A DNA stretch of 64,000 nucleotides from a virus, in the UHGV virus genome UHGV-0242533, one strand, 5' to 3'. Made by a program: the position numbers and the translations under genes. Shown piece by piece: positions 1 through 7,905 of this stretch (within the stretch, counting starts at the first letter, position 1; the number at the start of each line of letters is the position of its first letter). The notes beneath the pieces were generated by a model. The model was not told the origin of the DNA. It worked only from the letters and a program-made list of their open reading frames with translations, and ran no database searches.

Positions 1-976
1 CACAGACACGTTTCCACGTATCAGGAATTTCGAATGGTTCACATTTAATTGTGTCATCCGATACATCATAAATCAAACCACTTCCTAACAATGGCATACC
101 TTTTGAACGCATTTCTAATTGCCACGCTGGAATACCTTCAGTCATATCTTTTATATCTTGGTCAGTGATATGTCCACCTAGGTCTGCATGAGCATCCCAC
201 CAAGAAGCATTCTGGAAATATAGAGAACCTGTGTTCTCATCCCCTTCACCTTTCATAAATTTATCTACCAGTTCAGTTAAACCGTTCTCTGGTGTAGCCG
301 TAATTGTAACTAGACCTTTAGTTGTGAGTGTACGTGTGACACACTGTGCGAATATAGCCATAGACTCGTATGGATCTTCTTCGTCTAACCAAATGTAGTC
401 AACTGTTGCACCCATCAATGTGTGTTCACCCTGTTGGGTTGAACGGAATTCTAATGTACTTAAACCGTCAAACTCTCCTCTTTCATTTTGATGTTTGATT
501 TGTACGATTTGAAGTTTGTTACCATCTCGTTCTATCGTGTCAATGACGATAGCATCACGAGGAATGACACCTGTCCCTAATAAATTTGTATCCTTTCCGA
601 TAGGTGTACCAAACAATTCCTTTTGCAATACTTTCCTTGTGGAATCCCCTGTAATACCAACTGCCCATGCTAAGATAGGTCTTTTAAATTTATATCCTGT
701 CCACCAAGTTGGGTAGCGACCTGTGACATGACAAGCAAACTCGTATGCCTCGCTATAAGATTTACCAACACGGTTCGCTGCACACAAGAATCTAAAGCGA
801 TGCTTCAATCCTGCTGCATAAAATTTCTTTTGGAAGTCATACGCCTTGAAAGACAAAATCCTATTATACTTCCTCCATTGGTCACGCTCTTTCAACATAT
901 TCAATAGTGCTTTCTTTTCATCTACACTAAGGTTGTTACCAGTTAGAGCTTCATAAATTTGTTTATCTAATGACAT
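1..976 (-). CDS. terminase large subunit, N-terminal ATPase part (partial; 3' end beyond window start)
   Basis: Reverse-strand ORF open from ATG at 976-974 to position 1 (absent from the ORF track because it has no stop in the window); translation MSLDKQIYEAL...; Walker A-like AANRVGKS and Walker B-like IWLDEEDP; GGAGG RBS upstream. Confidence 0.7.
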   Translation of the reverse strand, partial: MSLDKQIYEALTGNNLSVDEKKALLNMLKERDQWRKYNRILSFKAYDFQKKFYAAGLKHRFRFLCAANRVGKSYSEAYEFACHVTGRYPTWWTGYKFKRPILAWAVGITGDSTRKVLQKELFGTPIGKDTNLLGTGVIPRDAIVIDTIERDGNKLQIVQIKHQNERGEFDGLSTLEFRSTQQGEHTLMGATVDYIWLDEEDPYESMAIFAQCVTRTLTTKGLVTITATPENGLTELVDKFMKGEGDENTGSLYFQNASWWDAHADLGGHITDQDIKDMTEGIPAWQLEMRSKGMPLLGSGLIYDVSDDTIKCEPFEIPDTWKRVC

Positions 977-1045: not shown

Positions 1046-1519
1046 TTAACTCTCGTCCGCTTCCTCCCCCTTTTCAGCGTCCTCAGAGTTGTCTTCTTCT
1101 GGAGGCATAACGTCAACACCAAGTGCTCCAGTCAAGAAGTCCTTGATTTGTGCATTCAATGATTCTTCGTTGATTACATTCTCTTCCTCAATCTTAACTT
1201 CAACAGAGGCCGCCTTAGGATATACCAGATCTGCAACTTTTGATGCAGCCTTGAATCTAAGATCAGGTGGAATATTAGGATCTTCGTAAATTTGAATTAA
1301 CACTTCATCAGGAGACAAATGACTTGCAGCAACACGGTCCAACATTAATTGTGTCAGTTTACCTCTACTACCTTTGGGTCGTCCGAATTTATTTCCCTTT
1401 TGAAACTTCCCATTGCTTGGGTTCATACCACGGCTTTCAAGTTCTTCCGTTACTCCGGGTAATCTTCCTGTAACCTCAGCTACCTGTGCAGGCGTGAGTT
1501 CTCCGTTTTCTCCAAACAT
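1046..1519 (-). CDS. putative terminase small subunit / DNA-binding protein
   Basis: 157-aa ORF immediately upstream of terminase large subunit; basic GRPKGSRGKLT segment, acidic C-terminus. Confidence 0.4.
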   Translation of the reverse strand: MFGENGELTPAQVAEVTGRLPGVTEELESRGMNPSNGKFQKGNKFGRPKGSRGKLTQLMLDRVAASHLSPDEVLIQIYEDPNIPPDLRFKAASKVADLVYPKAASVEVKIEEENVINEESLNAQIKDFLTGALGVDVMPPEEDNSEDAEKGEEADES

Positions 1520-1575
1520 TTTATACTCCTTCTACATTATCAACAACACAAAAAGCCTCCCAACGGAGGCAAATA

Positions 1576-2271
1576 TTACTTACAATCACCAACGGACAGG
1601 TTAAACATCTTACCTAGAGCAATCGTCTCACCTTCCCACGGAAGTTCTGCACCCTTCTCTTCCTCTAAAAGAATAGAGCCGTCGACCAAAAATTTTTCGT
1701 AGTCTCGCAGTGCGTCGTCTACTAACTCACTCTTGTGAATCCACGTAATTGTTTCTGTACCATCCTCTTCGATTCGAACATCACGATGCCATTCATCTTT
1801 GGAGGTAATGTAATCATGGAGCATTTCATATTCAGCTTCTTCAATCATCTCAATCATTGCACGAGCATAGTCAGGGAGGTGATCATGTTTAGTAGATTCG
1901 TATTCAACTACTTCCAGAGTAGAAGGCTTAGCCCGTGCAACTTCTTCAAGTACTTTTGATCGATCTTTGTAGTAGTTCTCATATTTATCACCAATAGTAC
2001 CGACTTGAAGTCCACGGTATTGTTCTACTAAACTCATCATATCTTTCTTCTCCGTAATAGTTGGTTTAAGAATACTTCCACTATATAAATCTTGTACAGC
2101 CAGTCCTGAAACATTTCCCATAGTTTCTAAATGTTGCAAGCTACAACCAGAACGACACAGCTGTGAATTGTAGTCAACCATGTCCATTGCTTTGATGTGG
2201 AAAGGAGAACCAGAAGGGAAACTACCTCCATAAACACCTTCCATGTTAACTGCGATTATTTTATTATTCAT
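1576..2271 (-). CDS. hypothetical protein (231 aa)
   Basis: Long ORF in late operon, overlaps neighbour by 8 nt (translational coupling). Confidence 0.6.
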   Translation of the reverse strand: MNNKIIAVNMEGVYGGSFPSGSPFHIKAMDMVDYNSQLCRSGCSLQHLETMGNVSGLAVQDLYSGSILKPTITEKKDMMSLVEQYRGLQVGTIGDKYENYYKDRSKVLEEVARAKPSTLEVVEYESTKHDHLPDYARAMIEMIEEAEYEMLHDYITSKDEWHRDVRIEEDGTETITWIHKSELVDDALRDYEKFLVDGSILLEEEKGAELPWEGETIALGKMFNLSVGDCK

Positions 2272-2518
2272 TTGTATCTCCCTTGCTGTAATCTTTGTAT
2301 GTTTCTACTTTGTAAGTGCGGAATGCTCTGAAGAAGAGCCAACCTAAGCTACTCACATCAATTGTGATATCGAAATCTGTATCATCATCTAAATCAACAA
2401 GACGACCTAAGCATGTAGCTTCCATCCCTTCTTCAGAGTCACTGTTGACTACGAAAGCGTATGTCTCAGTTCTGAACCGAGGCACCAACTCTGATAAAAA
2501 GTCTAATACTAAATTCAT
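2264..2518 (-). CDS. hypothetical acidic protein (84 aa), first gene of minus-strand operon
   Basis: ORF with AGGAGAAG RBS on minus strand upstream of ATG at 2518. Confidence 0.5.
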   Translation of the reverse strand: MNLVLDFLSELVPRFRTETYAFVVNSDSEEGMEATCLGRLVDLDDDTDFDITIDVSSLGWLFFRAFRTYKVETYKDYSKGDTNE

Positions 2519-2544
2519 AATTCTTCTCCTCTGAATAAAAGTAT

Positions 2545-2672
2545 AAAGGGCACATCATAAGATCAACCCGTAAAGGCCACGTCATACCAACAACCCGTGT
2601 ACGCTGAAGTAAAGGGCATGTCATAAAGGGGACTTCATGTTAAGGCACCCTCACATTAAGGCCATGTCATTA
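2545..2672. repeat. array of five direct repeats, consensus AARGGCMnnTCATA, spaced about 25-40 bp
   Basis: Copies at 2545, 2572, 2611, 2642, 2658 read directly from sequence. Confidence 0.6.
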
Positions 2673-3687
2673 GTCATACTTGATACACCTTGCTATAGAG
2701 AAGCAGATGAATAAACAGAAGACTATTACTAACCAGAATATCCATTCCATTAAGGTCTGTCCATCCATGTGCTGTGTTTAAGCTTACCACATTTACTACA
2801 TCTCCAAGTGGACTTATAAAGGGTGTGAACTCTTTCATCCCCGTAAGCTTTGTGTATCCGATAGTACTCATGATCACATTTGAATTGCTTAATGATTAAC
2901 TTAATTTTCCACATAAATTCTCTTTCAACCTTATATATAAGAGTTTAAAATTCTGATTTGACCGAATGGGGCTAGCCGCTCGCCGCGCGTTTCCTAAAAA
3001 GGGGGAGTCCTCATTTAAAAAAGGGTTATTGGCAATGCCTTTACCTTCCCTTTACATGTTCCACCTTTCCCCGTGCCTACTCCCCGTAGTTATTCCCCCG
3101 TGTATCCACACCACATAAATGGTGGGGCATACTTTTATGCCTCTGTATACTACCCAATACATTACCTACCCGTTTATTTAGTTCCCCTTTAAAGAGTGGA
3201 TGAGAGGCCAGCACTGTATAAAGGTCTGTATAATGATTAGATTAAGGCACTATGAATAAGCTAATAACACCCCCTAGTTACTACCCCATTCCCCCCATAG
3301 TTTGATTGTAAATAGTTTCAATAGTTGTTATTATGAGTGCAATATATGATGGGTGCATGGAATGCACAGCTACGAAGTAGCGTTGTATGTATGTATTAAT
3401 TAAGTGGAAAGATTGATACTTTCTTTTATGTTCTTTCTTTTTCAGCGTACCTGAGCGTAAGCGAAGGGTGAGTACGTAGTACGAACGGTCTTTGATGTTT
3501 GAGTAGATGATTTTGGTTAAGTGGTATATTACTACCGCACTATCTGGCTATCCTTCCCCGTGGTCTGTTCTGCGGTTGTGTGTTCCCCGTCCTATATAGA
3601 TAGTAGAATTAATTCACCCGTGGTCTTGCTTTCCTTATTAGGTAGTGGTAAATTGAATCTATCGATTGAGTGGTTGGAGTAGTAGAA

Positions 3688-3852
3688 ATGATTATCTTAG
3701 TAATGTTGGTGCTGGCTGTAGCGTTTCCTTTGCTTGCTCTGATTGTTTGTGAAGTGGTTGAGTTATTCACTGATAAAGGGTTAGAAGTTGTTGATAAACC
3801 AAGCAAATTTGATGGCGTGAAATTTAGTAAAAAAGTTGAAATTAGTTGTTGA
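3688..3852 (+). CDS. small hydrophobic membrane protein (54 aa)
   Basis: ATG at 3688 with GGAG 10 nt upstream; MIILVMLVLAVAFPLLALIV transmembrane segment. Confidence 0.4.
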   Translation: MIILVMLVLAVAFPLLALIVCEVVELFTDKGLEVVDKPSKFDGVKFSKKVEISC

Positions 3853-3877
3853 CATGTTAGGTAATAAGAAGTATAGT
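3849..3877 (+). promoter_or_regulatory. sigma70-type early promoter (TTGACA-17-TATAGT)
   Basis: AGTTGTTGACA box at 3844-3854, -10 TATAGT at 3872-3877; 41 nt upstream of gene at 3919. Confidence 0.5.
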
Positions 3878-3918
3878 TATCTCATTGAAACGAAGTATAC
3901 TAACTAAAGGGGTCAATC

Positions 3919-4395
3919 ATGAATAAGGCAAACTTTGTAATCGGTGCTCTGGTATTAACCTTCGGTAGTATGGCTATCGCTGACAAGATTGCTAGCGCTC
4001 CAGTTGCTCAAGCTGCTGTAGTTATGACTGATGCTGCTGATACATTCGTTAGCAACGCTCCTAAAGGTTGGATGGTTTGTAAAGGATTGGATTCAGATAA
4101 CGTCACTACGTTGATGAAAGTTAAATTATCTAACGTAACCAATCGTGGTATGATTTTGTCTACTCGTACACTTGACAATCAGAACAATGAGGATATTCTT
4201 CTTTCCCGTAAAGACAATGACCCTGAGTTGATTACCTTTGGCGATGTGCAGACTATCAAAGGTTCTAAAGTTGTGACTAATCTTGTAACGTATGGTACAA
4301 TGCAAGAAACCATGTTAGCCACTTCCGTTTATGCTGCTGATAACAGTATTTGGACGTTCCGCTTTCAGATGGGTGATTGTGTTAAAGCAAAATAG
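3919..4395 (+). CDS. secreted/periplasmic protein with N-terminal signal peptide
   Basis: 158-aa ORF, RBS AAGGGG; MNKANFVIGALVLTFGSMAIA signal-like N-terminus. Confidence 0.7.
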   Translation: MNKANFVIGALVLTFGSMAIADKIASAPVAQAAVVMTDAADTFVSNAPKGWMVCKGLDSDNVTTLMKVKLSNVTNRGMILSTRTLDNQNNEDILLSRKDNDPELITFGDVQTIKGSKVVTNLVTYGTMQETMLATSVYAADNSIWTFRFQMGDCVKAK

Positions 4396-4398
4396 TTG

Positions 4399-4427
4399 TT
4401 GACACGGTTATAGATTGGCAGTATTAT
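4399..4427 (+). promoter_or_regulatory. sigma70-type early promoter (TTGACA-17-TATTAT)
   Basis: Same AGTTGTTGACA box as 3849 promoter; -10 TATTAT at 4422-4427. Confidence 0.5.
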
Positions 4428-4462
4428 TACTTCATCAAGACAACATTAAAGGAATCAAGACA

Positions 4463-4792
4463 ATGAAAACCCTAATCGCATCTGCTCTTTTATCTGTAGC
4501 TGTTCTTTCAACTGTTGGATGTTCTTCTTCTCCGCGTCCTAACGGTTGGTGTGCTCTGGAAGTTGAAGGCACTTGTGTGATGCGTTGGAAAGATGGCGTT
4601 AAGGTTCCTGCTGGTGAGATTGACATGAAGTACGAAGGTGCTAGCTGTTCTAATGGTGGGTCTGTTGATGAAAAAGCCTATCGTGAGCGTGATATGAAAA
4701 CACAAGCCGATTGGAAGAAGTCAGATTTTATCTCCCGAGCAACTCATTGCGGTGGCAATACTTCCGTTAAGGGTAAAGAATGGGACATTTAA
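4463..4792 (+). CDS. lipoprotein (paralogue of 13380..13679)
   Basis: ATG 4463 with AAAGGA RBS; signal peptide ending in lipobox LSTVGC; shares W-C-A-[VL]-[AE]-V-E-G and VP-[AS]-GEIDM and C-G-G motifs with the second copy. Confidence 0.7.
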   Translation: MKTLIASALLSVAVLSTVGCSSSPRPNGWCALEVEGTCVMRWKDGVKVPAGEIDMKYEGASCSNGGSVDEKAYRERDMKTQADWKKSDFISRATHCGGNTSVKGKEWDI

Positions 4793-4896
4793 AAAGATTA
4801 GTTTGCAATACTAGTTCTAACGTACTATCTTTGATTTTCACCGTGATTGCTACTGCAATTGCTTACTATGTTCTTGTTGTTTTGGGAGTGTGACTT

Positions 4897-5160
4897 ATGA
4901 CTAAAGAGTACAGCTACACTATTCCCACCCGTAACTATGGCGATATTGACTTTTCTTACACTGACACATCTGACAAGTGTTTAATCTTGTTCGTTAGTGG
5001 TGATAATATTAATGCGGTGGAGTTTCCTGCTGTTGCTCTAATCATGGATGACGTTAAAGCTGGTCATTATCTAGCGCAACGTGGGGTTCTTCTGTCACTG
5101 GAAGAAATTAAATTGCTTAGAGTATCACTCTTTGAAGGTAAAGGCAACGATGAAGAATGA
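4897..5160 (+). CDS. hypothetical protein (87 aa)
   Basis: ORF in early operon. Confidence 0.55.
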   Translation: MTKEYSYTIPTRNYGDIDFSYTDTSDKCLILFVSGDNINAVEFPAVALIMDDVKAGHYLAQRGVLLSLEEIKLLRVSLFEGKGNDEE

Positions 5161-5446
5161 TTATTTTTGGCGGTGCTTGTTCATTGCTACAGTGGTGCTA
5201 TTCGTCGCTGATATGCTTTACTCTTACGTTCTTTAAGGCCTGAGTGTGCTGTTTTTGTTTGTGTTTGTCGTGGGCTTCATTTCTTTAAATTATTTACTGA
5301 TTGTTGCCGCTCTGGATATTCTTAATCTCAATACTAAAGGTTGATTGCTATGTGGTTTATTAAATTCTTAGGCTTAATCTTTCTTCTTTATTGTGCCGTA
5401 GTCATGCCTATGGTCATAATTTATCTGATTCTATAATCCTTCCTGT

Positions 5447-5470
5447 AAGCCTCCTAGTGAGGCTTTTCTC
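5447..5470 (+). terminator. rho-independent terminator
   Basis: AAGCCTC-loop-GAGGCTT hairpin followed by TTCTCG. Confidence 0.5.
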
Positions 5471-5731
5471 GTTTCTAAGGTGATTGTATGCCTTCCTCCC
5501 TTTTAGCTCGTTGTGATGCTTCTGAGAGCGTCAAATAGTGCTTTACAAGCCTGTTTTAGTGTGTTATTCGCGTGCGCGTTCCTTTATACCTCCCTTCCCT
5601 GAAAAAATAATCGAAATAGGTGTTGCTTTCCTCTATCACTTCCACTATCATCTATTCATCGGTTAAGCAGTACCAAGTAGACAACCTGATAAGTCGTACG
5701 AAAAACAGGTAATCGATAAGAAATAAAAAGA

Positions 5732-5759
5732 TTGACAAGGTATCCAAACGTAGTAAGAT
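5732..5759 (+). promoter_or_regulatory. strong sigma70-type promoter P1 (TTGACA-16-TAAGAT) with A-rich upstream element
   Basis: Exact TTGACA at 5732-5737; AAATAAAAAGA upstream. Confidence 0.55.
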
Positions 5760-5879
5760 GGGTATCAGAAACAAAGCAAGGAAACTTGCAAATGCTCTTT
5801 AAAAACTTATCATCTTGCCCTTTCGCAAAGATTCACGCGAGATAAGGGAAAGGAATTCAAAGAAGATGATAAAAAAGAG

Positions 5880-5907
5880 TTGACAAGGTAATCCAGTGAG
5901 TTATAAT
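5880..5907 (+). promoter_or_regulatory. strong sigma70-type promoter P2 (TTGACA-16-TATAAT)
   Basis: Exact -35 and exact -10 consensus; AAAAAAGAG upstream. Confidence 0.6.
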
Positions 5908-6055
5908 GGTTGCCAGTTAGCAGATACACAGCTAACATGTTCTTTAAAAATATGACCTGATTCACTAGCCTAGCCGCTTAGTAATCCTCAATCAAATATA
6001 GCTGATTGATATATCCTCCCAATAAAGGGAACGACGAAAAAGATTAAAAAGATGG

Positions 6056-6084
6056 TTGACAGGCACTGAGAGTTAGGGCATAAT
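6056..6084 (+). promoter_or_regulatory. strong sigma70-type promoter P3 (TTGACA-17-CATAAT)
   Basis: Exact -35; AAAAAGATTAAAAAGA upstream. Confidence 0.55.
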
Positions 6085-7005
6085 GAGCACATTAGCTAAG
6101 GGAAACATTCCGAAGCGAAGCGAGACAACGGCTAACAGTTGCATAGCGTGAGCAAACACGCTGATAGATTTACCGCTCTTTAACAATATAAACGTTCTTC
6201 TATATCGGTTGAATATGCTTGATGATAATAACCATCGGAAAGCATACCAGATAAAACGGTGTAAGACTCTCTAGACTATCAGAGGAAACAGTCTTGCAAT
6301 CCCTTACTGGAAACGTCACCACTGATAAATGGATTCACTGAGTGCACGCAAAGACTTAAGCTAATCGCCCACGGTTAAGGGTAGCGGCGGTCATCGCTAA
6401 CAAGGCGCTACAGTGAAAGAAGTTAATCAGGGTAGACAAGTCCGACAAATTAACGCCCAATTGAGGGCGGCGGGGAGCGGTTAAAAAGTGGCAAATTGCT
6501 ATTTAACAATAAGGTTTAGTGTGAACGTTTACGATGTGAACGGCTTGAGATTCGTCTTACGATGAAAGTACATAGTCGGTTTATGTAGTAAACTCGCTGA
6601 AAGATATCAAACGTCGGAATACTAGACGGTTAATGACTCTTTCGCAATAGTCTCCCGTAGTGGGCGATGGCTAGCGATTGAGAGTTAATACAAAAGGATA
6701 GGCGAGAGCGAAAGCAAAGTAGACGATATTGCCGACGGTTACAATAACGTAACTAATTAGAGTCGGACACACTGCCTTATTGTGATGATTGATCATCGCT
6801 ATCAGGTCGGCTTTGTTTATAGCGACTAATTAAAGATACCAGATGAAACATCACGGATAAGGAGGCGGCAAGGTTAACTCCTGATAAGACCGCCTCACTT
6901 ACCTGTAACTGCTCAATAATGAGTGGTTAGAGTTAAGTTAATAGTGACTTAAACAAGCTCATAGAGAGCGGGGCATAGTGCCCTAAACATTAAAAGGTAA
7001 ATATC

Positions 7006-7905
7006 ATGGCTAAGATCTTCACTCTGGTTAACGAATCTGGTTTTAACGCTCTGGCTAACAACATCCGCAGCAACAACGCAGCGATTAAGCAAGACGTTTC
7101 TAACTTCCTGTTAGGGCACTTGCAGCACTTCCGTAGCAACGGTAAAAAGCTGGACGTATTACAAGCGGCGGTTGACTTCCTGTTAACTGAACGCTTCCGC
7201 GATATGGATGTTATTGCTACCGCAATCACTTTCTTAACCCCTATCAAGTTTAACACTGATGCGGCGAATGGTCGTAAAAAGTGGATTAATCTGGAAGGCG
7301 AAGCGAAAGCGAAAGAAGATGCGAAAGAAGCGCAAATTAAAACCAAAATGGAACAAAACCGTGCCCGCTGGTCAAACGCTTTCGAAAACTTCGCGTTAGG
7401 TCGTGAAATTGAAGTTGATAACCCTAACTTCTACAAAGGTTGCAATGACAACGTAGCGGCACACCTGCAAATCCCGGCGAAAAACAAGGAAGACTTTAAC
7501 CAAGATATTTACGCTTTGGTTGAACGCTTGAATGCAATCCGTATTGAAGCCAAATTACTGGCTGATGAGCGCAACGGCGCAACTAGCGATAACACTATCG
7601 CCCTGAGTGAAGAAGTTGGGAAGGTTAAAAAGTCCTTTGATTCACTCATCAAGAAAGTCACGGCCTCAACGGTAGCGATCTCGGATGATTATCTGATGAA
7701 CGCATCAAGCAAGGAATTAGAATCACTCGATTCATACGCTGATGAAATGGAAAAGACTGTTGCAGCTATGCAGGAGAAGTTAGAAAGTCTGCGCGGTCGT
7801 ATCTCTTCAACGGTTGCTACCCGTACCGAACAAGCGGCGAAAGCAGAAGAGGAAGAAGTATTGCGTAAAGCGGCTGAAATTATGGCGGCACGTCAGGCGG
7901 CATAA
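7006..7905 (+). CDS. early protein (299 aa), helical/coiled-coil C-terminus, unknown function
   Basis: First ORF downstream of P1-P3 and a 0.9 kb leader; codon usage unlike neighbours (GCG/CGT/CTG rich); followed by strong terminator. Confidence 0.8.
   Translation: MAKIFTLVNESGFNALANNIRSNNAAIKQDVSNFLLGHLQHFRSNGKKLDVLQAAVDFLLTERFRDMDVIATAITFLTPIKFNTDAANGRKKWINLEGEAKAKEDAKEAQIKTKMEQNRARWSNAFENFALGREIEVDNPNFYKGCNDNVAAHLQIPAKNKEDFNQDIYALVERLNAIRIEAKLLADERNGATSDNTIALSEEVGKVKKSFDSLIKKVTASTVAISDDYLMNASSKELESLDSYADEMEKTVAAMQEKLESLRGRISSTVATRTEQAAKAEEEEVLRKAAEIMAARQAA

What the first reader, a model, noticed from the sequence alone, without database searches (positions are those of the whole stretch)
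2520..3690. Probable genome terminus / packaging region between divergent late and early blocks
Five direct repeats (AARGGCMnnTCATA, 2545-2672) lie next to the terminase operon and are followed by pyrimidine-rich low-complexity DNA with CCGTGGTCT repeats and no credible ORFs. This would be the physical genome end with terminase recognition repeats; the inward-facing strong promoters just to the right fit transcription-assisted genome entry as in T7.
Basis: inference. Interest (0 to 1): 0.45.

Follow-up and report, generated by a model that had tools for sequence, protein, structure and literature searches.

The report
Phage genome end with repeat array
This stretch is the place where the two ends of a phiEco32-like (Kuravirus) coliphage chromosome meet, a known kind of short terminal repeat, and next to it lies a conserved, apparently undescribed array of short repeats that probably marks the DNA for the packaging enzyme.

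Summary
The window comes from a Kuravirus (phiEco32-like) coliphage. By homology to the experimentally mapped 193-bp direct terminal repeat (DTR) of phiEco32, YF01 and Paul, a single collapsed DTR copy lies at 2974-3209. It is 236 bp here because of a private 43-bp insertion. Both boundaries carry GGCY|AG.

The repeats at 2544-2670 are real. There are five good copies and one weak copy of a 15-bp unit, found nowhere else in the 64 kb. They sit 304-430 bp inside the terminase-side arm. On the TerS strand the unit is bipartite, ATGA-N5-CCTTTA. It occurs in all 17 Kuravirus-like genomes examined. A related ATGA-N5-CAT form occurs in six more distant phages. In each case it lies between a DTR-end-like element and the small-terminase gene.

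My best reading is a TerS docking array, like lambda cosB or a pac site (about 0.4, inferred). A transcriptional operator is the main rival.

"No credible ORFs" is wrong: a conserved 54-aa zinc-ribbon gene (2750-2914, minus strand) lies in the region. Strong inward-facing sigma-70 promoters on the early side are confirmed.

The terminus itself is already known for this genus. The repeat array is the only possibly new element.

The parts
1..975 (-). Large terminase (TerL), N-terminal part; the gene runs off the window start
   Evidence: Collinear with phiEco32 phi32_7 'terminase large subunit'. ATG at 975 preceded by GGAGGA.
1046..1519 (-). Small-terminase-like protein (phiEco32 gp6 homologue, 157 aa)
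   Evidence: 99.4% identical to phi32_6. Annotated as putative TerS in YF01 (PMC9965538). A profile of 8 homologues hits the PaP3 and NV1 TerS structures 6W7T and 7JOQ at E = 0.003-0.005. Weak DUF5681 match.
1531..1570 (-). Late promoter P6 (TAATGTAGA, with G at -37 and A at -34), overlapping the terminator hairpin that follows gp5
   Evidence: Motif hit. phiEco32 gp36 promoters were mapped upstream of gene 6 (PMC4331800). The -37G and -34A contacts are described in PMC12276001. Spacing counted from the sequence.
1576..2518 (-). gp5 (231 aa, database label 'ABC transporter') and gp4 (84 aa) homologues; these left-arm genes lie between the repeat array and TerS
   Evidence: phrog_12176, phrog_12698.
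2544..2670 (-). Array of six direct repeats. Units start at 2544, 2571, 2610, 2624, 2640 (weak) and 2656. On the TerS strand the unit is bipartite, ATGA-N5-CCTTTA.
   Evidence: statistics; conservation and logo in 17 Kuravirus-like genomes; related arrays in more distant phages.
2670..2750 (-). 26-aa hydrophobic ORF (MEWIFWLVIVFCLFICFSIARCIKYD). Its start overlaps the stop of the upstream gene (TAATG). Present in only a subset of relatives, as an indel.
2750..2914 (-). 54-aa zinc-ribbon-like protein (CxH...CxxC). This is the real gene of the interval.
   Evidence: Protein-level conservation across two nucleotide haplotypes. phrog_7696 at E = 4.5e-16. tblastn finds it in YF01, Paul and SU7 but not in the end regions of 7-11, GAP52 or Privateer.
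2932..2973 (.). Nearly invariant non-coding block just outside the DTR on the left-arm side (TATATATAAGAGTTTAAAATTCTGATTTGACCGAATGGGGCT)
   Evidence: Alignment of 14 genomes.
2974..3209 (.). Single collapsed copy of the direct terminal repeat. The virion left end would start at 3209 and read leftward. The right end would stop at 2974.
   Evidence: Maps to phiEco32, YF01 and Paul DTR positions 193 to 1. Boundary motifs GGCT|AG (2970-2975) and GGCC|AG (3206-3211). Only one copy in the window.
3101..3143 (.). Private 43-bp insertion inside the DTR that folds as two adjacent short hairpins
   Evidence: Absent from 13 aligned relatives and from all 50,697 phage records. DNA fold -8.6 kcal/mol.
3156..3186 (-). 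gp36-type promoter-like sequence inside the DTR, facing the late arm (TAATGTATT, with G at -37 and A at -34)
   Evidence: Spacing counted from the sequence, compared with PMC12276001. Conserved in relatives. No mapped phiEco32 gp36 promoter is listed there (PMC4331800).
3210..3687 (+). Non-coding early-side leader with conserved blocks. These include a promoter-like site at 3306-3334, TTCAGCGTA at 3441-3449, a conserved block at 3513-3578 holding the CCGTGGTCT hairpin, and a second CCGTGGTCT at 3618. A private 39-bp double-hairpin insertion lies at 3345-3383.
   Evidence: No Rfam family or tRNA.
3688..3852 (+). First early-arm ORF (54 aa, hydrophobic N-terminus)
3849..4427 (+). Two near-consensus sigma-70 promoters that read inward from the right genome end (TTGACA-17-TATAGT at 3849-3877; TTGACA-17-TATTAT at 4399-4427)

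Best explanation
The interval is the concatemer junction of a Kuravirus (phiEco32-like) podophage. The assembly holds it as one collapsed copy of the short direct terminal repeat.

Genome ends (shown by homology to mapped ends):
- The DTR is at 2974-3209. The two cuts fall at GGCT|AG (2973|2974) and GGCC|AG (3209|3210).
- The left virion end reads leftward from 3209. It passes the DTR, a conserved flank block, a zinc-ribbon gene, the repeat array, gp4, gp5, and then TerS and TerL.
- The right virion end arrives from the early arm and stops at 2974.

Repeat array (inferred):
- The six bipartite repeats (ATGA-N5-CCTTTA on the TerS strand) are most likely the sequence-specific docking array for the ring-shaped small terminase gp6. 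That would make them a cosB- or pac-type recognition element.
- They sit on the arm that is packaged first. From there TerS would position TerL to cut at the DTR boundary.

DNA entry (inferred):
- The early arm, with its inward-facing sigma-70 promoters, is probably the end that enters the cell first. That would make the terminase arm the first to be packaged.

Confidence by part: terminus and DTR assignment about 0.9; array as a functional conserved cis-element about 0.85; TerS as its ligand about 0.4.
For: Terminus:
- The phiEco32 ends are identical over 193 bp and map to 2974-3209.
- YF01 and Paul carry annotated 193-bp DTRs at the same place.
- The ends were determined experimentally in those phages and in SU10 (PMC9965538, PMC4281155).
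- Both boundaries and their flanks are conserved in 14 genomes.

Array is real and under constraint:
- It has 5 copies at 2 or fewer mismatches, against 0.8 expected, and it is unique in the 64 kb.
- It is present in all 17 Kuravirus and Suseptimavirus genomes examined, with 2-6 scored copies each, on the same strand and in the same place.
- The half-sites are invariant (information content 2.0 bits) while spacers, copy number and intervening indels vary.

Link to the end and to TerS:
- Related ATGA-N5-(G/C)CAT arrays occur in 7-11, GAP52, Privateer, Csa009, LAh_8 and Vp_R1. In Vp_R1 they have an 11-bp period.
- In each they lie downstream of a CCCCCTTTT...GCT|AG DTR-end-like element and upstream of the TerS homologue.
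- In Kuravirus, gp4, gp5, a terminator and promoter P6 separate the array from TerS. The array still stays 226-304 bp from the DTR boundary. It therefore tracks the genome end, not the TerS promoter.
- The TerS core (residues 39-107) is highly conserved across all these genera. Its profile matches solved PaP3-type TerS nonamers. PaP3 TerS binds its site specifically through N-terminal HTH motifs (PMC7672466).
- The second half-site changes to CCTTTA in the same lineage where TerS gains a roughly 20-aa N-terminal extension.

Early promoters.
Against: - No binding, footprint or packaging data exist for the array. The link to TerS rests only on position and co-occurrence.
- The array is 300 bp or more from the nearest cut, with a gene in between. 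That is farther than lambda cosB is from cosN.
- The nearly invariant block that straddles the DTR boundary (2932-3050) is an equally good or better candidate for the primary terminase site.
- In the distant relatives the unit is close to a palindrome (ATGACA|TGGCAT) and is interleaved with T-tract + CAGTGTA motifs that resemble phage-sigma -10 elements. This would also fit a dimeric regulator acting on late promoters.
- The window holds one DTR copy and no read data, so duplication at both ends of this phage's DNA, and the 236-bp length, are inferred.
- The original phiEco32 papers (Savalia 2008, Pavlova 2012) could not be read. They may already discuss these repeats or the timing of the left-arm genes.
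Confidence: 0.6

Rival explanations
1. The array is an operator for a phage-encoded (or host) sequence-specific regulator. Such a regulator would control transcription of the left arm, meaning gp4-gp5 here and the TerS operon in the Grimontviridae, rather than packaging.
For: - The unit is bipartite, with half-sites about one helical turn apart. It is near-palindromic in Privateer, Csa009 and Vp_R1 (ATGACATGGCAT), as is typical of dimeric HTH regulators.
- In 7-11, GAP52, Privateer and Csa009 a composite TATGA-N4-CCCATC-TA(T/G)-CAGTGT recurs at fixed spacing. AGTGTA resembles the gp36 -10 element AATGTA (PMC12276001).
- In the window the array lies directly upstream of the gp4 start. TTCAGCGTA and TTCAGAGGA motifs are interleaved with it.
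Against: - The motif occurs at a single locus in 64 kb, so it is not a general late-gene regulator site.
- In Kuravirus the array is not at the mapped late promoter P6. It stays near the DTR.
- Spacing between units and the CAGTGTA-like motifs is otherwise variable (17-43 bp; counted).
- No candidate regulator was identified. The adjacent zinc-ribbon gene is missing from the end regions of the distant phages that keep the motif.
Confidence: 0.25
2. The array is a set of iterons of a replication origin, or of another replication or recombination site, placed near the genome end.
For: - It is a unique cluster of same-strand direct repeats in non-coding DNA.
- The related phage GAP52 has a cluster of consensus DnaA boxes in its terminal non-coding region.
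Against: - Spacing is irregular (14-39 bp) rather than the regular pitch typical of iterons.
- No AT-rich unwinding element flanks it: GC is 0.36-0.43, about the genome average.
- No DnaA-box cluster occurs near the array in the window.
- The GAP52 DnaA boxes lie on the early-arm side, not at its ATGA array.
- The replication genes are far away.
Confidence: 0.08
3. The repeats have no function of their own. They would be a decaying tandem duplication or recombination scar in a variable intergenic region, and the genome uses some other packaging signal.
For: The interval is very indel-prone among relatives, with 100-bp insertions in phiEco32 and MN03 and hairpin insertions in others.
Against: - Half-sites are invariant across 49 distinct site sequences while the spacers drift.
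- The array survives in genera whose TerS is only 41-51% identical. Neutral repeats would not persist that long.
Confidence: 0.05

Closest known systems
phiEco32 / Kuravirus 193-bp direct terminal repeat (also YF01, Paul, SU10)
   Same: - Homologous sequence, with about 95% identity over most of it.
- Same boundaries (record orientation AGCC... to ...GGCT).
- Same position between the TerS/TerL arm and the early arm.
   Different: - 236 bp here, because of a 43-bp double-hairpin insertion (3101-3143) found in no other phage record.
- One boundary base differs (GGCC|AG instead of GGCT|AG).
- Only one copy is present in the window, so duplication is inferred.
Lambda cosB (R1-R3 sites bound by gpNu1) and SPP1 pacL/pacR (TerS boxes)
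   Same: - Several copies of a 15-16-bp element.
- They lie between the cut site and the terminase genes, on the arm that is probably packaged first.
- The cluster is unique in the genome.
- The comparison draws on my own knowledge of lambda and SPP1 and on PMC7672466.
   Different: - The ends are a blunt 200-bp DTR, not cohesive ends or headful packaging.
- All units have the same orientation.
- The array is 300-430 bp from the nearest cut, with a gene between.
- No binding data exist.
T7 concatemer junction: 160-bp DTR flanked by arrays of short CCTAAAG repeats, followed by early promoters A1-A3
   Same: - A short DTR with an array of short same-strand repeats just inside one end (T7 nt 175-345).
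- Strong host-RNAP promoters face inward from one end.
- A 37-nt block upstream of a window early promoter is about 95% identical to the T7 A1-A2 spacer.
   Different: - In T7 the repeat array and the early promoters are on the same (left) end. Here the array is on the terminase end and the promoters are on the opposite end.
- The unit is 15 bp and bipartite, not a heptamer.
- These phages have no RNA polymerase of their own (PMC4281155), so the T7 link between polymerase and terminase cannot apply directly.
PaP3-type small terminase (PDB 6W7T, 7JOQ)
   Same: - The gp6 profile matches the oligomerisation core at E = 0.003-0.005.
- The gene lies directly upstream of TerL.
- PaP3 TerS binds its packaging site sequence-specifically through N-terminal HTH motifs (PMC7672466).
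   Different: - The match is weak and covers only the C-terminal core.
- The N-terminal DNA-binding part is not alignable.
- PaP3 TerS was tested on a single 20-mer, not on a repeat array.

Membership tests
Kuravirus-type direct terminal repeat (genome end) | Sequence homologous to the experimentally mapped 193-bp DTR of phiEco32, YF01 and Paul | tested here: met
   Window 2974-3209 aligns to DTR positions 193 to 1. Identity is about 95% over 3105-2750 and 92-97% over 3198-3160, interrupted by a 43-bp insertion.
Kuravirus-type direct terminal repeat (genome end) | Conserved boundary sequences at both edges of the repeat | tested here: met
   GGCT|AG at 2970-2975 and GGCC|AG at 3206-3211. The same GGCT|AG occurs at both edges in nearly all of the 13 aligned relatives.
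Kuravirus-type direct terminal repeat (genome end) | The repeat is physically present at both ends of virion DNA, with defined blunt ends | not testable with these tools
   No reads or virion DNA are available. The window holds one copy only. This is known for relatives from PMC9965538 and PMC4281155.
Kuravirus-type direct terminal repeat (genome end) | Lies between the TerS/TerL late arm and the divergent early arm | tested here: met
TerS recognition array (cosB / pac type) | Clustered repeated elements near the cut site, on the terminase-gene side, unique in the genome | tested here: met
   Six units at 2544-2670, 304-430 bp from the 2973|2974 boundary. No other copy at 2 or fewer mismatches in 64 kb.
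TerS recognition array (cosB / pac type) | Co-occurrence with the cognate TerS lineage and with the genome end across relatives | tested here: met
   Present in all 23 genomes examined that encode a gp6-type TerS, always between a DTR-end-like element and TerS. This is correlative only.
TerS recognition array (cosB / pac type) | Specific binding by the small terminase | not testable with these tools
   Needs EMSA or footprinting with purified gp6.
TerS recognition array (cosB / pac type) | Required in cis for packaging initiation | not testable with these tools
   Needs a deletion or a plasmid-transduction assay.
gp36 (phage sigma) promoters, as an identity for the repeats | AATGTA centred at -11.5, with G at -37 and A at -34 | tested here: not met
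   No unit has AATGTA at the required distance (spacing counted). By contrast, P6 (1531-1562) and a DTR-internal site (3156-3186) do meet it.
Iteron-type replication origin | Regularly spaced iterons with an adjacent AT-rich unwinding element and/or DnaA boxes | tested here: not met
   Spacings are 27, 39, 14, 16 and 16 bp. Flanking GC is 0.36-0.43. There is no DnaA-box cluster.
T7-type transcription-assisted genome entry | Strong host-RNAP promoters close to one end that read inward | tested here: met
   Sites at 3849 and 4399 (11 of 12 consensus positions), 5732 (10 of 12), 5880 (12 of 12) and 6056 (11 of 12), all on the + strand, 0.6-2.9 kb from the DTR.
T7-type transcription-assisted genome entry | That end enters first, and internalisation depends on transcription | not testable with these tools
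   Needs time-resolved entry assays with and without rifampicin.

The most novel reading that the evidence does not exclude
The ATGA-N5-CCTTTA / ATGA-N5-CAT array may be the packaging-recognition element of the whole clade of prolate (C3-morphotype) podophages: Kuravirus, Suseptimavirus, Grimontviridae and Lahexavirus. In this reading a PaP3-like TerS nonamer binds it through multiple HTH motifs. It would then be the first defined multi-site TerS recognition array for a phage with short blunt direct terminal repeats. It would explain how these phages, which lack a T7-type RNA polymerase, choose where to cut concatemers.
Probability: 0.35. Interest if true: 0.5.

Novelty: new member of a known kind. 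Interest (0 to 1): 0.33.

Why it matters
- The practical result is correct placement of the genome ends for this phage. The DTR is at 2974-3209 and the cut motif is GGCY|AG. This is needed for proper linearisation, annotation and engineering of Kuravirus therapy candidates.
- It also corrects the local gene calls. The real gene is the zinc-ribbon ORF, not the phi32_1-3-type frames.
- The conserved repeat array gives a concrete, cheap experiment (gp6 EMSA, array deletion) on an open point. [quoted passage not shown]
- If the array is the TerS site, it would also be a handle for building packaging or transduction vectors for this phage group.

Tried and rejected
1. Repeats as gp36 promoters: rejected. 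No AATGTA or -37G/-34A geometry is present.
2. Repeats as sigma-70 promoters: rejected. ATGACA resembles a -35 element, but no conserved -10 lies 16-18 bp downstream (manual reading; one search lists none there).
3. The adjacent zinc-ribbon protein as the repeat binder: unlikely. tblastn finds no homologue in the end regions of 7-11, GAP52 or Privateer, which keep the motif. A copy elsewhere in those genomes was not excluded.
4. Structured RNA or tRNA in 2200-6200: none found.
5. DnaA-box origin near the array: none found.
6. phi32_1-type frame (2674-2877, 67 aa) as the gene: rejected in favour of the 2750-2914 frame, which is the conserved one.
7. IMG/VR scan for two adjacent units: 27 loci, of which only 2 were Kuravirus-like and the rest chance hits. 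It was uninformative.
8. Single-sequence PDB search with gp6: nothing found. Only the profile search reached TerS structures.
9. The original phiEco32 papers (PMC2587145, PMC3275717) are not held. Whether they mention the repeats is unknown.
10. Literature searches for phiEco32 direct repeats and Kuravirus terminase recognition found no description of the array.
Full report
**What the window is.** A megablast of 2000-4500 hits about 96 phage records. All are Escherichia or Shigella phages of the phiEco32 group (Gordonclarkvirinae, Kuravirus). The window's plus strand corresponds to the minus strand of the phiEco32 record.
- To the left lie, on the minus strand, the N-terminal part of TerL (1-975), the gp6 small-terminase-like gene (1046-1519), gp5 (1576-2271) and gp4 (2264-2518).
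- To the right, from 3688, lie plus-strand early genes.

**Check of the observation.**
- The repeat is real. TAAAGGSCAYRTCAT occurs five times with at most 2 mismatches (2544, 2571, 2610, 2624, 2656) and nowhere else in 64 kb. Shuffles give 0.8 +/- 0.95, and none of 100 reaches five.
- A weaker sixth copy is at 2640-2654.
- CCGTGGTCT occurs at 3558 and 3618. It is part of a strongly strand-biased CCCGT motif: 10 plus-strand copies fall in 2567-3617 and no minus-strand copy does.
- Pyrimidine richness is modest, at most 0.64.
- The claim of no credible ORFs fails for 2670-2914. The frame at 2750-2914 (minus strand) encodes a 54-aa CxH...CxxC protein. It is conserved at protein level between two nucleotide haplotypes that are only about 70% identical, and it matches phrog_7696 at E = 4.5e-16.
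- A 26-aa hydrophobic ORF follows at 2670-2750, coupled by a TAATG overlap. It is present only in some relatives.

**Where the end is.**
- The phiEco32 record carries identical 193-bp sequences at its two ends. YF01 and Paul have annotated 193-bp DTRs.
- All three map to window 2974-3209.
- The literature reports these ends as experimentally determined. Restriction mapping, primer walking and subcloning were used for phiEco32, full-length nanopore reads for YF01, and PhageTerm for Paul. SU10 showed sharp read drop-offs that indicate blunt ends (PMC9965538, PMC4281155).
- In a 14-genome alignment both DTR boundaries are conserved and share one short motif: GGCT|AG at 2970-2975 and GGCC|AG at 3206-3211.
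- The window's copy is 236 bp. It contains a 43-bp insertion (3101-3143) that folds into two adjacent hairpins. That insertion is absent from the 13 aligned relatives and from every record of the phage collection.
- A second private insertion with the same double-hairpin look lies at 3345-3383.
- The window contains only one DTR copy. The source assembly therefore runs through a collapsed junction. Duplication in virion DNA is inferred from the relatives.

**The repeat array.** The array lies outside the DTR, 304-430 bp into the terminase-side arm.
- Read on the TerS strand, the unit is bipartite: (A/G)TGA, five weakly constrained bases, then CCTT(T/A)A. Both half-sites are invariant across 49 distinct site sequences from 17 Kuravirus and Suseptimavirus genomes. 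Flanks, spacers, copy number (2-6 scored copies per genome) and intervening indels vary.
- More distant phages that encode a homologous TerS (41-51% identity) have related arrays, (T)ATGA-N5-(G/C)CAT(C/G).
  - 7-11 has five units and GAP52 three.
  - Privateer and Cronobacter phage 009 have five each.
  - Aeromonas LAh_8 has about six.
  - Vibrio Vp_R1 has a dozen, partly at an exact 11-bp period.
- In each of these genomes the array lies downstream of a CCCCCTTTT...GCT|AG-like element that resembles the inner end of the Kuravirus DTR, and upstream of TerS.
- In Kuravirus, gp4, gp5, a terminator and the mapped late promoter P6 (TAATGTAGA at 1531-1539, with G at -37 and A at -34, as in PMC12276001; promoter list in PMC4331800) lie between the array and TerS. 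The array still stays 226-304 bp from the DTR boundary. The element that stays constant next to it is therefore the genome end.

**What the array most likely does.**
- gp6 is a small terminase by position and by annotation in YF01 (PMC9965538). A profile match to the PaP3 and NV1 TerS structures supports this (E = 0.003-0.005).
- PaP3 TerS is a nonamer whose N-terminal HTH motifs bind its packaging site specifically (PMC7672466).
- The array is a unique cluster of same-orientation sites. It lies between the cut and the terminase genes, and it persists in the same lineages as a strongly conserved TerS core. This is what a TerS docking array would look like. Lambda cosB and SPP1 pacL/pacR are the textbook parallels (my own knowledge).
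- One further correlation is weak but consistent. The second half-site is CCTTTA only in the lineage whose TerS has an extra N-terminal segment of about 20 aa.
- I put this reading at about 0.4.

**Rivals and caveats.**
- The main rival, at about 0.25, is an operator for a dimeric regulator. The distant versions of the unit are near-palindromic. They are also interleaved with T-tract + CAGTGTA motifs that resemble the phage-sigma -10 element.
- An iteron origin is unlikely. Spacing is irregular, and there are no AT-rich or DnaA elements.
- The units are not gp36 promoters.
- The nearly invariant block that straddles the DTR boundary (2932-3050) may be the primary cleavage or recognition site. 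The array could be an accessory to it.

**The early side and the T7 comparison.**
- The stretch 3210-3687 is non-coding but contains conserved blocks. No Rfam family or tRNA matches it.
- Near-consensus sigma-70 promoters face inward at 3849 and 4399. Three more, at 5732, 5880 and 6056, lie in a 1.5-kb non-coding leader. This matches the SU10 description of three promoters between genes 120 and 121 (PMC4281155).
- A 37-nt block at 5675-5711 is about 95% identical to the spacer between the T7 A1 and A2 promoters. It is shared with hundreds of T7-like genomes.
- This layout fits entry of the early end first, and hence packaging of the terminase end first. That is inference; no tool here can test it.
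- T7 also has an array of short repeats just inside its DTR, but on the early end.

**Verdict.**
The terminus is a known Kuravirus DTR, and it lies at 2974-3209, not at the repeats.
- The repeat array is a real, deeply conserved cis-element. I could find no description of it in the literature available here. The two original phiEco32 papers could not be read.
- Its function is unproven. The most likely one is TerS recognition.

Noticed in passing
window 5675-5711: A 37-nt block (AAGTAGACAACCTGATAAGTCGTACGAAAAACAGGTA) upstream of a strong early promoter is 92-97% identical to the A1-A2 promoter spacer of T7, T3 and about 450 other T7-like phages. Those phages are otherwise unrelated to this one.
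   Followed up: partly
window 3101-3143 and 3345-3383: Two private insertions (43 and 39 bp), each folding into two adjacent short hairpins. They are absent from all aligned relatives and from the phage collection. A similar GCTAC-GNA-GTAGC hairpin is inserted at a different non-coding site in Bas94, and GTCATC-AAA-GATGAC hairpins sit inside the repeat array of several relatives.
   Followed up: partly
window 2750-2914 (-); phiEco32 record about 253-417: The conserved gene here is a 54-aa zinc-ribbon protein. The phiEco32 annotations phi32_1, phi32_2 and phi32_3 use other frames or run across the repeat array, and they are probably wrong. Many relatives annotate nothing here.
   Followed up: yes
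window 3156-3186 (-): Inside the DTR, facing the late arm, is a sequence with the full gp36-promoter geometry (TAATGTATT, G at -37, A at -34). It is conserved in relatives. No mapped phiEco32 gp36 promoter is listed there in the paper I could read. It could drive transcription across the junction into the left arm.
   Followed up: partly
window 2567-3617 (+): CCCGT occurs 10 times on the plus strand and never on the minus strand across the DTR and both flanks, about a 13-fold enrichment. The copies are conserved in relatives. SU7 has AYGGGTA in the equivalent places. This is a second repeat family at the junction, of unknown function.
   Followed up: partly
window 2600-2608 (-) and 3441-3449 (+): TTCAGCGTA occurs once on each side of the DTR, each time pointing away from it. 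Related T-tract + CAGTGTA motifs recur upstream of TerS in 7-11, GAP52, Privateer, LAh_8 and Vp_R1. They may be variant phage-sigma promoters.
   Followed up: no
window 5460-7005: A 1.5-kb stretch with no ORF call of any size. It carries three near-consensus sigma-70 promoters (5732, 5880, 6056) and a roughly 900-nt leader before the next gene at 7006.
   Followed up: no
L016 (GAP52) about 1216-1256; L020 (Privateer) about 2015-2065; L015 (7-11) about 1200-1260: These records contain an internal element that resembles the inner end of the Kuravirus DTR (CCCCCTTTT...GCT|AG). Their physical ends are therefore probably about 1.2-1.3 kb inside the deposited start (GAP52, 7-11), or otherwise not at the record ends (Privateer).
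   Followed up: partly
L016 (GAP52) 400-640: A cluster of consensus DnaA boxes (ACTTATCCACAGG three times, plus variants) in the terminal non-coding region of GAP52. It is a possible host-DnaA-dependent origin. No equivalent cluster occurs in the window.
   Followed up: no
window 1550-1570 (-): The terminator hairpin after gp5 overlaps the -35 region (GGGA at -37 to -34) of the late promoter P6, which drives TerS.
   Followed up: no
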